Source: Eledone cirrhosa (taxonomy: Eukaryota). Taken from it: a stretch of DNA of 64,000 nucleotides. Position 1 is the stretch's first letter. The number at the start of each line of letters is the position of its first letter. The position numbers and the translations under genes are program-made. Location of the stretch: contig OZ024756.1 in NCBI GenBank assembly GCA_964016885.1, forward strand, positions 23,746,001 through 23,810,000. Direction: 5' to 3'. The notes beneath the pieces were generated by a model that saw only the letters and a program-made list of their open reading frames with translations, had not been told where the DNA came from and made no database searches. Shown here one piece after another: positions 40,101 to 57,500 of the stretch.

Positions 40101-43100
40101 ACAAATGAAATTAAGGGACATTCTGCCTCATGGTCCTGGCTCACAGGATGGAGAAGACATTGCTCTGGAGGAAGACAAGGGAGGAACAATTATTCCATCT
40201 TGTGAGGCTTGCATTTGTGGGTAACCAGCTCCACTCCAATAGTAGTGAGCAGGGATGTGGTCCAGGTGCCAAGAACACTGGGACCTGCTATTATCACTCA
40301 ATCTGCCAAATCTCTCTAATTATTTCTTACCATCTTATAAAAATAAAAGGGGGGGACATTTGATACTGTAGTTCTTGACTTCCAACCATCTTATAAAAAA
40401 AAGAGACATTTGATATGGTCGATGAACAAGATCCAAGACCTCATTCGCTTACAGAGTAGCAGAACACATCAAATCAGACCAAGGAAACCATGTTTCCATT
40501 GGTCATTCAATTGCTGATACTATATGCCAGTCGTATCACCCGGCAGAAAGACCAACATGAAATAATGTGTCTTGCTCAAGGACATAGGGTCTTGCCCGGT
40601 TCAGGATTCAAACTCACCTCACAATTGTGAATCCAATACTCTAACCACTTAGACATATGCCTTCATGATCCATTTGAAAAATGAACATGTCAGTCAAGAC
40701 TGTAACACCTTTAATCATAAGTCTGGACAATCAGGGTTGACTTGAGGGAGATTATGTTGTAATAAACTCACAGGTGTAACCTATACAACAGAGACTGGCA
40801 TATATATTCCTCATCTCACTACCATACAGTAGTGTGTTTATGACACAGCCATTGTAGGCTGCCATCTTTATATTAACCCTTTAACATTTACATTACTCTA
40901 TATTTACACAGTAATGGTTTTATCTCACATAATATCGAATCTTTGAGATTTTGATATTATTCATTTTGACAACAATACCTTAACATCAGAATGAGTGTCC
41001 AGTTATAGCCAGTTTGAACAGAAAGAGGTGAGAGAATTTTGGCCAGATACAGCCGATTTAAATACTAAAGAGTTAAACCCATCAGCCTGTGATTTCTCCA
41101 CAATCTATAGCTGTCAATCTTTACAATCAAACACAGAACTCAAAATCAACTGACAGTCAAATATTTTATTATGGTACCAATCTACCAACTGAAGGTATCA
41201 GTGAGGGTTTTTTTTATCCTATTACTGTCACTCTCACAACAGTTACAAACAAGAGTGACTGCAACCAAGTGAAAAAAAAAAAAAAATAGAACAAGTGGTG
41301 CAACCCCTAGCCAGCTATGGCCAAAAGGAGCCACATCAACCCTACAGGTTCCAACTAAAAAGAAAGGGTTGAAGTATATGGATGTATTGACTGGGGCATG
41401 TCACAAATTAATTGAAATTTGCAATTAAGTGGGTGTGTGGACGTTTAGATCAATCACCAATGTATTAATGATATACGGTTAATTGAATGAACTAGAAATG
41501 AATTAACTGAAAAGGGGACAAAGTTAACGTGGGGATGAGATCTGAAGTGAGAACCAATTGGGGCTAAGGTCATTACTATAAAACATATAGTCCTAATAAC
41601 AGACGTACATACCTAACTACAAAAAAACAAGCTCCTACAAGTTTGAACTATTTTTACAGTTTTAACACACAACACCCAATGTGATTGGATCGTTAAGCTG
41701 ACTTGAATGTTGTGAAAAGGTGACATGTTTATAAAGGGTGAACACTGATATGAACACAACAGCCTCCTCATTGGTCATATATATATATACACACACACCT
41801 ATATATATATATATATATATATATATGTGTGTGTGTGTGTGTGTGTGTGTGAACAAAGCCGGCTAACTTCCAGAGGTAATCTGAAAATATAGCCGCCAAA
41901 ATGCCGATAACTATGACAATAGTTCATATTGTAGTGAACTGTAATGTGGCAACGTTACTATCAAATCTCTCTCTCTATATATATACTGGCATTAGTTTTT
42001 TTTAGGGGGAGTGGGGGGTGGGGGTGCTAGGGTCATAAACAGCCTCTACTTCTAAGATATCAAAAGAAATAATTAATAATAGGATATTATGGGGTTGTTT
42101 ACGTACAAAACCCACCGACGAGTTTCAAATGGCCATCAACAAGGAAATAGGATGAAGTATTTATAATTCACTAACTACAGTATATAACATGAAACAACCA
42201 TTGCGCCGGGGATACACAGAGGAACCTAAGTTCTACTGATGACATTGCAAGCTGTCGGCAAAAAATTAAATACCACAATGGTAGAGTTTATTTATTATTC
42301 AGAAATACGTTTGTAAATACGCGTAAGTATGTATATATATATATACATATAATAAATGAAAAGTATAGAAATTATTGTAGCAAGAAGCCAACAGTATTCC
42401 ATAATATTGTATATATATTAGGGAGCGACGGAAAAAGAGCACAAACACACGTGCTTAACGATACAAATAATTTAAAGTACAAAACGAATTCTTTGTGCAC
42501 GTGTAGCTATGTCAAAAAGATTTCCCACCCAACCGTATGTATGTGTATATGTGTGTGTGTATGTGTATATATGTGTGCGTGTGTGTGCAGCATTGAAAAA
42601 CGGACGATGATGCTACACATACGTACTTTACATACATGCCGTTTATCTACCATCGTTAAATATCAATATATAGTAAATATAACATTTAATTGCCAACATT
42701 TCAACGTAAAATACAAATTCAAAAACAGATATTCATAATTTTAAATATGCAATCTTTTCATATTTTACATACATACATATATATATATATATAATCTATG
42801 CAATTTTTCCTCCTGTGTTTTGTTTGTTTCACTTTATTAACTATATATATATATAATTTTATTTATTATAATAAATTAATAGACCTATACTCTATTAACG
42901 TATTGAGTACTTTTTTTGAGAGAGATCGGCTCCCGATTTACACCAGGATCATATATATATAAATAATACATATATATATATATGATATAAATAATACATA
43001 TATATATATATATATGATATATATATATATATGATATATATATATATAAATACATATATATATTTATTATATATATATATTATATATAATATGTATAATA

Positions 43101-54593: not shown

Positions 54594-57500
54594 GTAAGGA
54601 ACCTAACTTTTGGGGGGCGTTTTACCTCTAATAATGTTTGATGACCCTTTCTCAATACTATCGTTTATTTTTTTTTTATATAACATTGATCATCATCATA
54701 ATTATATATACATATATGCCTATTCTCTACCGTGGTTACACCCCGACGCAATATATATATATACACATTGCATCACTGGAATAACGAGTTCTACACATCG
54801 GTAAACAACATAAATGGTATATATATATATATATATATATATATATATATATATATATATATAGAGAGAGAGAGAGAGAGGGAGAAATTCTACAGACCTA
54901 GAACTGTTTTATTCTTATGTAATGATTTCATACGAATGAAACAGCTTTAGTCCTGTAGAAATCTGTATATAATAAAGATGCCTATACTCTACCAACGATT
55001 TACCTTTTTTGACTTTGTTAACGCCAGACAAAACTCGGGAATCACTCGACAAGATCCCAGACCTCATTCGCTTATCGAGTGAGGATGGAACTCGTCAAAT
55101 CGGACCAAAGAAACAATGTTTCCATCGGTCTTTCCATTGCTGATACTGATACCGGTCGCAACATACATGGTATTAGTTGAACATTCTAGAAACCAGCAAA
55201 TTTCGGAAATGGAATATATAAATTACTTCTATGTTTACATATCGTGGGTAATACGAAATCACAAATAACTATATATATAGCAAAGGTAAAAATATAACTG
55301 TTTGCATGATGATATCTATTTATTGACCACGAAAGGGTGAAAACCAAAGTTGACCTCGGCAGGTCACACACACACACACATATAACTATATCTGCATTCT
55401 CTCGTTTATCTGTGATGTGTGTACATACACACTTTATCATCATCATTTAACCTCCGCTTTCCCTTCTCGAAAGGGTTGGACTGGTCTACATAGACCAAGT
55501 TAGTACTGAAGCGGGACTACTGACCTCTAAGAGAGGCCGAGGGGTAAACAATTGTGATGATTTTATAGGTAACTTGTCAATCAAGTCCTCTTTGGCACTG
55601 ACATCGATTTAATCGAATGTTTCATCATCTAAAACTATTTTTCAAGTGACATATTTGCCATAATTGAAACTATTTTACAAGTGATATATTTGCCGACTCA
55701 TTTAACAATGCTAGTCGACATCCAGGGCTGTATTAAGTCCTTATGAAGACCTAAACACAAAAGATTATCGCGTGTCTGTGTGTCCCATATATAAAACATG
55801 CGAATGTTTTTTTTTCTTTTTCTTTTGAATGACATACTTTTAGTTTGAATAAAATGGTGTCCCTCTTTTGTTGATTCATTATGTAAGGACGTGTGTATTT
55901 TGCTTAGTGTGTGTGTGTGTGTGTACAGGATGTCCCAAAATATGTATTCACACTTCACCAGCACTAATAAATATTGCCTGTAAAGTTAATCAAAGTGTGT
56001 ATACATTTTTTAGGGATACTTTGTATATGTGTGTGCACACACAGATAAGCAAGAAAATGCAGATATAGTTTTATGGGTGTATGTGATCTGCCGAGGTCAA
56101 CTTTGTTTTTCATCCTTTCGTGGTCGATAAATCGATAGAGTACCAGTCCAGGGTGGATATCGCAGGACGTTCACCACCCTGCGATATCTGTTCCAGTTGT
56201 TTTAATTTCAAACTCTACCCCTAGTCCTGCCAAGAGTTGCAACTGACATCTAGCATAAGTAATGGAATGGAAAAACCAATGGAAACATACTTTCCTTAGT
56301 CATATCAGAGTATCATCTTTTTCCCCATATATATATATATATATATTTAATACAATAACAGAGATAGCTTAAAGCTAAACTCTGACTGGTAACTATCTCA
56401 CTCAACAAACATTAGGTTATATGTTAGTATAAATCCAATTTAAGTGTTTGGGGTGCTAACTATATGTATTATGTGGAAAGCCAGTTGTATTATTTTATGA
56501 GATATAATTAAAGTTAAAATTATATATATATATATATAGTATATGACAAACTGAATGAATTGGTGTTAAACCCACGAAACTTAATTATCTGCTTAATTCT
56601 GTCCCATGAACTGAGTTCTCTAAACACCTAGATAGTTATGCCAAGTTTGAACTACAATATATACACATACACACTATGTTGTTACAGCTAACTTCTATGT
56701 AAGTTTAACTGGCCTTCTTCAAGGTTGTATCTCGAATGGAGATTTCTTTTTCTGAATTGTTTTAATGATAGGGGCTCCAGTCCTATCATGAAAACACTCT
56801 GTCTGTGTGTGTGTATGTGTACCAAACTATAAGGGCCTCTAGAGAACTACAAGATAACACCCTAACATCATTGTTATATTTTTAACATTTACTGTCCAAT
56901 TCACATCATGGTAGCTTTCAAACAAAGCATTGTTTTTCATACTTTACACAATGTTTGAAGCAAACAACAACATCCTCTTATATATTTAGTGTAAACAAAG
57001 TTTCATACATTTAACATTGTGAATAGGCATCATATCTTGTCATTTACCTATGGTTTAAATTTCATATAAACTGAAGGGAAAACATTTTCAGCAGGGATTT
57101 TGTACCTCCGGGGAACCCTTTGATTAAAATGAAATATACTTATCCAAGTACCCTGGGCAATGTAGTTTCAGAATATATATAGTTATGGGGGTCTATCTCC
57201 AAAACCATAGGAGGAGTTCGTGAAATCTTGTTCCATTTATTAGCCAAAATTTTCACTATAGGGGGTTTAACCCTCATTAGGGTGTCTTAATATTATTGAA
57301 ATTTGCTGAAATTTTGTGAATAGGCATCATATCTTGTCATTTTTAACTATGGTTCAAATTTCATATAAAGGGTCATATAAAGAGTCATAGGGACACTGTA
57401 TAGACATACAGCATTTCTAGGGCATTTATTCTTTTTAAACCTAGCAGAACCCATCTCCTCACCATGTCTGAATACAGCAGATTTCTTCCAGAGAAGGATA

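What the first reader, a model, noticed from the sequence alone, without database searches (positions are those of the whole stretch)
42884..55010. Hammerhead-ribozyme foldback elements clustered around the RNMT/FAM210A divergent region
Seen: four related motifs (44974-45020 minus; both arms of 46914-47010; 54885-54963) give the consensus TTTC-CTGATGA-TTTC-N4-GAAT-GAAACAG-TTCTAGTC-CTGTA^GAAA. This is a type-I hammerhead: stem I TTTC/GAAA, short stem II, stem III ACAG/CTGT, GUA cleavage triplet. Copies are arranged as inverted pairs, lie in or beside (TA)n, and travel with a conserved tail tatactctactaacgtattgagtac...cccgattta (42884, 45038, 46830-46890, 54980). Known: Penelope-like elements and retrozymes carry such ribozymes. 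Inference: this is a non-autonomous, microsatellite-targeting ribozyme retroelement family. The copy with an intact core is sense to the RNMT pre-mRNA in intron 1 and could cleave it. The other copies carry core mutations (CTGGTGA, AAAAC, TAATGA), and stem II closes with an atypical U-U.
Basis: partly seen in the sequence, partly recalled or inferred. Interest (0 to 1): 0.75.

Follow-up and report, generated by a model that had tools for sequence, protein, structure and literature searches.

The report
Penelope hammerhead mini-insertions starting at promoter
These hairpin-shaped repeats are decayed, promoterless fragments of a known kind of jumping gene (Hydra-type Penelope element) that carries a predicted self-cutting RNA; thousands of such fragments begin about 31 bases behind a TATA box, which likely means the element's enzyme copied the uncut front end of its own RNA into TA repeats.

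Summary
The motifs are real. They are four decayed copies (two subfamilies) of a family with 20,859 exact hammerhead-core matches in this 3.0-Gb genome. The same ribozyme and tail flank a reverse transcriptase plus GIY-YIG ORF with the Hydra-clade Penelope-like element (PLE) motifs. So these are pseudo-LTR pieces of an autonomous PLE, and the U·U at stem II is normal for that clade.

New here: short copies are head-to-head pairs whose inner ends stop at the first base of stem I, 30-31 nt behind a conserved TATAAATA (23 of 25 young elements ending within 33 nt; P about 2e-18). Junctions vary, and pairs centred on the cleavage site are rare (21 versus about 1,600). I infer run-off cDNA from uncleaved RNA, primed at the 5' tail from both ends of a cut (TA)n. 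The start site is inferred; no RNA data were available.

The copy in RNMT intron 1 has broken stems and probably does not cleave. Four copies in 64 kb is within background. Earlier scan notes found two-armed insertions and fixed outer ends on other DNA of this genome; I saw none on the TATA boundary.

The parts
42856..42950 (+). Copy W1 (subfamily A1): linker palindrome remnant plus tail; both hammerhead arms deleted
   Evidence: tail 57/67 identical to L020 and L013
44963..45016 (-). Copy W2 tail-less arm: hammerhead, CUGAUGA 45016-45010, GAAA 44997-44994, GUA triplet 44980-44978; stem III A44992·C44981 mismatch; native stem I 5' strand lost
45017..45105 (+). Copy W2: remnant of the second arm (its hammerhead deleted), linker and A1 tail with two hairpins
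46830..46955 (-). Copy W3 (subfamily A2): tail-bearing arm; hammerhead 46914-46955 (core CUGGUGA), tail 46830-46890
46956..46967 (.). W3 central junction at the 5' ends of the two arms
46968..47012 (+). W3 tail-less arm (G12 changed to A, stem III mismatch)
54884..54914 (-). Copy W4 (A1) partial tail-less arm; 5' core lost by central deletion
54919..55013 (+). W4 tail-bearing arm (core GUAAUGA) with truncated tail
38150..46179 (-). Context: predicted first coding intron of RNMT, holding W1 and W2 (ATG at 46189; exon 1 joins exon 2 in frame)
   Evidence: PF03291 exons at window 25881-36586
54434..60254 (+). Context: FAM210A/B-domain gene; putative exon 1 at 54434-54593 would place W4 in its intron
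   Evidence: PF06916 at 57859-58224 and 59895-60254; exon 1 inferred from ORF and GT donor only

Best explanation
The four elements are old, promoterless pieces of the pseudo-LTR (type I hammerhead plus tail) of Hydra-clade Penelope-like retrotransposons, likely made when the element's reverse transcriptase primed at the tail near the 5' end of an uncleaved transcript and ran off at the predicted transcription start. Steps: (1) shown: a conserved TATAAATA lies 30-31 nt upstream of stem I, and the hammerhead plus tail occur both before and after an RT/GIY-YIG ORF. (2) Inferred: transcription starts at the first base of stem I, so the mRNA begins with the ribozyme. (3) Inferred: the endonuclease cuts (TA)n on both strands, and each 3' end primes cDNA at one of two fixed sites about 67 nt apart (the two end clusters are shown). 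(4) Inferred: priming at the 3' copy gives long, variably truncated palindromes; priming at the 5' copy gives about 60-nt and 130-nt run-off cDNAs. (5) Inferred: the two cDNA ends are joined head to head through microhomology or short templated additions. The products lack the TATA box, mask their ribozymes in a long hairpin when read through, and decay neutrally.
For: ORF linkage: in L041/L061, L055/L062, L073 and L100 the tail runs into the ORF; L063 is a 6.5-kb palindrome with the endonuclease at its centre and hammerheads at both outer ends. Hydra motifs are present. 5,232 arms have ATAAATA 24-34 nt upstream, control 0. TATA-to-stem I distance is 30 nt in 16 of 29 distinct arms and 29-33 nt in 27 of 29; stem I starts at TATA+31 in 8 of 9 A1 rows (L235 and L247 are one place). 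Of 48 young elements, 23 end 4-7 nt upstream of C3, 2 end at 8-33, 19 pass the TATA box and 4 end at <4 (P=1.7e-18). 3,353 exact short foldbacks exist; 24 of the 50 listed are of the young type, with 14 different junctions by hand count. Only 21 are centred at the cleavage site. Of 77 arms, 42 end at positions 50-63 and 27 at 127-133. The tail sits on either arm: 5:7 and 15:6. Stem I covaries between subfamilies: 2 pairs, 11 cells with changes on both sides, 92.8% paired versus 33-48% when slid. In vitro precedent: PAc nicks and extends both strands, starts internally at two sites and uses uncleaved RNA (PMC11167929).
Against: No RNA evidence for the start site, expression or cleavage. For subfamily A1 (three of the four window copies) I found TATA-bearing long copies but no linked ORF; ORF linkage is shown only for the young sister subfamily. 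The ORF near an A2-type copy in L233 belongs to another Hydra family, and in L231 the link is incomplete. The boundary sample came from the first 100 listed matches on one contig, selected for an intact core, and 4-5-nt matches can be partly chance. The element is longer than the '<3 kb' typical of Hydra. D. virilis Penelope has a TATA-less internal promoter (PMC2377424). Stems II and III do not vary within family A, so they give no covariation support.
Confidence: 0.72

Rival explanations
1. Same origin and start site, but the second arm is made by snap-back self-priming of one cDNA (or self-priming on an antisense template), not by priming from both ends of the break.
For: Some junctions hold short templated additions matching the start of the arm. 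Self-priming was proposed for rotifer Penelope palindromes (PMC3846280, passages). The 15:6 lean favours the tail arm as template (P=0.08).
Against: The tail arm has the shorter native 5' end in 7 of 12 and 6 of 21 informative cases, which simple snap-back cannot give. The tail-less arm ends at a fixed site.
Confidence: 0.13
2. A non-autonomous, self-propagating foldback family: a short master palindrome, or solo pseudo-LTRs that still carry TATA, is transcribed and moved in trans by PLE protein.
For: In A1, long copies are rare (13 matches; 2 exact matches to an upstream 20-mer) and no ORF was found. Thousands of TATA-bearing truncated copies could yield the same 5' end.
Against: 14 different junctions among 24 young elements; continuum of lengths up to ORF-bearing palindromes; short copies lack TATA; no head-to-tail arrays among the copies examined.
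Confidence: 0.1
3. The sharp inner boundary is a splice acceptor, or the result of later collapse of long palindromes.
For: The young subfamily has a pyrimidine tract plus AG at the boundary, and in D. virilis the intron end maps to the 5' end of helix I (PMC4209133). Central deletions are common (W1, W2, W4).
Against: Short copies keep the A/G that splicing would remove. Subfamilies with GG or TG instead of AG have the same boundary. Single-arm copies start there too. Multi-kb palindromes persist.
Confidence: 0.04
4. The 44975-45016 copy is a working cis-ribozyme that regulates RNMT pre-mRNA.
For: Core and GUA triplet intact, sense to the intron, masking arm deleted.
Against: Stem III mismatch, weak stem I, fold not populated; no core conservation among 20 old arms (core 13.8% versus other 9.3% changed, P=0.10); PLE hammerheads are weak or protein-dependent.
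Confidence: 0.04

Closest known systems
Hydra clade of C-terminal EN+ Penelope-like elements (Craig et al. 2021, PMC8557442; section 11, passages, part 2 of the supplement and supplement search hits read)
   Same: Single ORF with RT then GIY-YIG, RWx, DKT, CxCX5C, CxxC/CxH, no CCHH; (TA)n targets; hammerhead with U after A9 and U before G12; inverted 5'-truncated copy; one-sided tail.
   Different: Longer 3' UTR; 8-nt loop III with a central palindrome; tail about 67 nt rather than 30-40; a large class of mini-insertions bounded at TATA+30/31. Hydra-1_Obim has a different hammerhead, so this is another family.
Poseidon PAc of Anolis carolinensis (Frangieh et al. 2024, PMC11167929; parts 1-2 of 4 read)
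   Same: Two internal RT start sites bracketing the tail, both strands extended, uncleaved RNA as template.
   Different: Other clade; hammerhead overlaps the ORF start; shown in vitro, whereas here the pattern is read from genomic copies.
Minimal hammerheads of metazoan PLEs (Cervera and de la Pena 2014, PMC4209133; parts 1-2 of 4 read)
   Same: Type I, in pseudo-LTRs, mostly dispersed truncated copies, some opposite-strand pairs 100-700 bp apart, palindromic loop III.
   Different: Here stem III has 4 bp, stem II only 3 bp, no G10.1-C11.1 pair, and pairs are only 0-20 nt apart.
Metazoan non-LTR retrozymes (PMC7229834, passages; bioRxiv 10.64898/2026.07.22.740005, part 1 of 5)
   Same: Non-coding, type I hammerhead, PLE-related; an axolotl motif with U·U at helix II cleaves.
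   Different: Retrozymes are head-to-tail tandem units that give circular RNA; these are head-to-head single units from uncleaved RNA.

Membership tests
Type I hammerhead ribozyme | Core CUGANGA, GAAA, NUH triplet | tested here: met
   intact in the family and in W2, mutated in W3 and W4
Type I hammerhead ribozyme | Three helices, open stem I, covariation | tested here: met
   covariation in stem I only; stems II and III invariant. Young copy folds at -5.4 versus minimum -5.7 kcal/mol. Not met for the window copies themselves.
Type I hammerhead ribozyme | Self-cleavage after NUH | not testable with these tools
   no assay; foldbacks centred at the site are rare
Type I hammerhead ribozyme | Match to an Rfam hammerhead model | tested here: not met
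   no hit at E<=1 in the window
Hydra-clade PLE | Single ORF, RT then C-terminal GIY-YIG | tested here: met
   (YRDD; copies carry frameshifts); PF01541 E=2e-4, just under its cut-off; no Pfam hit for the RT
Hydra-clade PLE | RWK and DKT motifs | tested here: met
   RWR at 38, DKT at 116
Hydra-clade PLE | CxCX5C linker; CxxC and CxH around E/N; no CCHH | tested here: met
   absence of CCHH judged by eye
Hydra-clade PLE | (TA)n insertion and hammerhead in the pseudo-LTR | tested here: met
Hydra-clade PLE | Generally under 3 kb | tested here: not met
   ORF about 2.1 kb plus about 2.6 kb to the 3' hammerhead in L063, including simple repeats
Hydra-clade PLE | Placement in an RT phylogeny with reference Hydra elements | not tested
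   only by-eye likeness to the supplement alignment; 1,607 unnamed homologs at about 40-51% identity for the best 120
Hydra-clade PLE | ORF linked to subfamily A1 itself | tested here: inconclusive
   13 upstream matches, none with an ORF in 1.5-kb flanks; 9 kb upstream of L020 also none
Non-LTR retrozyme | Head-to-tail tandem units each with a hammerhead | tested here: not met
   none among the copies printed
Non-LTR retrozyme | Circular RNA | not testable with these tools
   no RNA data

The most novel reading that the evidence does not exclude
Hydra-clade Penelope elements mass-produce a 'strong-stop'-like product: the mRNA begins at the first base of its own hammerhead, the ribozyme stays uncut during reverse transcription, and twin run-off cDNAs are pasted into (TA)n as tens of thousands of perfect mini-hairpins. 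The genome thus records the transcription start and both RT start sites at base resolution, and is seeded with intronic double-stranded RNA.
Probability: 0.6. Interest if true: 0.6.

Novelty: new variant of a known kind. Interest (0 to 1): 0.46.

Why it matters
The role of PLE hammerheads and the origin of their inverted repeats are open questions (PMC8557442, PMC11167929). These copies give genomic support for reverse transcription of uncleaved RNA in vivo. They predict the start site and both priming sites to the base, and define a 130-nt RNA for a direct assay. They also explain a very abundant repeat (roughly 30 per Mb) that could be mistaken for a foldback DNA transposon. The locus itself looks ordinary: no sign of a role for RNMT or FAM210A.

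Tried and rejected
Rfam: no hammerhead; only microsatellite-driven miRNA hits. The repeat finder was swamped by (TA)n. PDB sequence search with the RT: 0 hits. Sequencing runs: no RNA holder listed; contigs of X1 and X4 were laid but say nothing on ends or expression. Search for an A1-linked ORF: none. The L233 ORF, first taken as the A2 parent, belongs to another family. The 2-versus-46 exact count meant to compare long and short A1 copies is weak, because many of the 46 carry A2-type tails. Simple snap-back, my first model, was demoted after the tail-side counts. Helitron, MITE or foldback DNA transposon: rejected because of the ORF linkage and asymmetric ends. Literature searches listed no paper on start-site-bounded PLE mini-insertions; PMC13282606 has no occurrence of hammerhead, ribozyme or palindrome. 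Repbase/Dfam, subscription journals and bioRxiv supplements were not available and may describe the family.
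Full report
1. Observation. The motifs are present as described. There are five hammerhead arms and four tails, forming four elements: W1 42856-42950, W2 44963-45105, W3 46830-47012 (minus orientation) and W4 54884-55013. 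Rfam does not detect them. The window lies in a 3.0-Gb genome (G000:C17:23746001-23810000); earlier scan notes call it octopus-type, which I did not test. A 32-place core pattern has 20,859 exact matches and none in the control. In 37 fixed-coordinate 10-kb stretches I found 11 elements, about 30 per Mb, and 0 in reversed sequence. Four in 64 kb is ordinary (P=0.13). Four in 12 kb is a post hoc excess (P=5e-4), but the background is overdispersed (variance/mean 1.66, P=0.008). RNMT lies on the minus strand (PF03291) and a FAM210 domain gene on the plus strand. A predicted ATG exon at 46180-46189 joins the next exon in frame, placing W1 and W2 in the first coding intron.

2. Anatomy. Genomic copies read: (TA)n, an inverted tail-less arm, a short junction, a direct arm with the hammerhead, an AT-rich linker, a tail, (TA)n. 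Subfamilies differ in loop II, stem I and tail end. W1, W2 and W4 are A1; W3 is A2; a young subfamily A3 dominates exact matches. On 14 aligned arms (13 of the 29 TATA-bearing arms, chosen to cover subfamilies, plus W2), the hammerhead structure is 92.8% paired against 33-48% for slid controls. Two stem I pairs show changes on both sides (11 cells); stems II and III do not covary. Related rows inflate the shuffle test, so the slid control is the fairer one. Among 20 old arms anchored outside the core, core positions are no better kept than others (13.8% versus 9.3%, P=0.10). Selection thus acted on source elements, and inserted copies decay neutrally.

3. The autonomous element. In L041/L061, L055/L062, L073 and L100 the tail runs straight into an ORF. 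It has YRDD, a C-terminal GIY-YIG (PF01541 E=2e-4), RWR, DKT, CxCX5C, CxxC and CxH, the features given for the Hydra clade (PMC8557442 section 11). L063 is a 6.5-kb palindrome with the endonuclease at its centre and hammerheads facing outwards, the known PLE form of an inverted 5'-truncated copy with a one-sided tail. In the paper's table, most H. magnipapillata hammerheads have U after A9 and U before G12, so the U·U is a clade trait. An axolotl motif with U·U cleaves (PMC7229834). For A1 itself I found long TATA-bearing copies but no ORF.

4. Inner boundary. ATAAATA lies 24-34 nt upstream of 5,232 arms. The distance from TATA to the first base of stem I is 30 nt in 16 of 29 distinct arms, and stem I starts at TATA+31 in 8 of 9 A1 rows. 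I classified young elements at the first 100 listed matches. The script gave 50 rows; I merged two split elements (L056, L115), moved L096 out of the long class, and took L105 as 17 nt, leaving 48. Of these, 23 stop 4-7 nt upstream of C3, 2 stop at 8-33, 19 pass the TATA box and 4 stop at under 4 (P=1.7e-18 against uniform). Single-arm copies begin at the same place. Genome-wide, 3,353 exact foldbacks have their centre there; 24 of the 50 listed are A3-type, with 14 different junctions by hand count. A3 foldbacks centred near the cleavage site number 21 (one A3 variant, 26 fixed letters versus 24). A TATA box at -30/-31 followed by a pyrimidine-purine step fits the usual Pol II spacing (own knowledge). 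I infer that this is the transcription start and that templates were mostly uncleaved.

5. Outer ends. Of 77 A3 arms, 42 end at positions 50-63 and 27 at 127-133; 3 read into the ORF and 5 end elsewhere. The tail is on the arm with the longer native 5' end in 5 of 12 and 15 of 21 informative cases. Simple snap-back predicts always. Priming from both ends of a break fits, a reading I took from earlier scan notes and from PAc, which extends both strands from two internal sites and does not need cleavage (PMC11167929). Self-priming was proposed for rotifer Penelope, whose pseudo-LTR also has a putative TATA and initiator (PMC3846280); short templated junction additions leave it a part.

6. The RNMT idea. 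W2 has an intact core and has lost its masking arm. But it has an A·C mismatch in stem III and a 4-bp junction-derived stem I; its hammerhead fold is +6.0 kcal/mol against a minimum of -8.9, while a young native copy gives -5.4 against -5.7. W3 and W4 have core mutations and fold as long hairpins on both strands. Cleavage of RNMT pre-mRNA is unlikely.

7. Novelty. The clade, its hammerheads, (TA)n targeting and inverted copies are published, and a different Hydra family is listed from Octopus bimaculoides. Earlier scan notes already describe two-armed insertions and fixed outer ends in this genome. The TATA-bounded inner end was not in the papers listed, nor in the scan look-ups, which show only a few lines per note. 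Verdict: new variant of a known kind; interest 0.46; confidence about 0.9 for Hydra-PLE origin and 0.72 for the full mechanism.

Noticed in passing
window 36908-37102, 11073-11106, 6905-6937, 48808-48837; L194-L223, L279-L308: Family B: an abundant sister foldback family with the same tail hairpin core. Its short copies begin inside loop II and so carry only the 3' half of a hammerhead. Long copies have a variant 5' core (CUGAGAAG in 35 of 35 arms) and a long stem II; only a weak TATA-like stretch lies about 30 nt upstream of that boundary.
   Followed up: partly
window 5697-5730 and 16699-16735 (+): Two further PLE-type minimal hammerheads of an unrelated family.
   Followed up: no
tail of families A and B; PMC8557442 supplement: The bulged tail hairpin resembles the 3' end of coral Hydra-2_Amil (by eye). 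The tail-less arm ends a few bases before it; a different small hairpin follows the tail end.
   Followed up: partly
L130, L105, L233, L066, L231: Other Hydra-type families (about 40-48% RT identity to L062) occur in the genome; L130 and L105 carry a different hammerhead-like motif before the ORF.
   Followed up: no
loop III of families A and B: Both loops hold a central palindrome; the family A stem III self-duplex is -14.2 kcal/mol, compatible with a dimeric ribozyme.
   Followed up: partly
window 49855-50230; 37320-37697; 63169-63912: A transposase-like remnant (label recalled as Tc1/mariner; no Pfam hit) and LINE-like fragments, one with a PHD finger.
   Followed up: no
L011, L016, L241: Elements of different subfamilies inserted tail to tail or side by side, suggesting repeated use of the same (TA)n target.
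   Followed up: no
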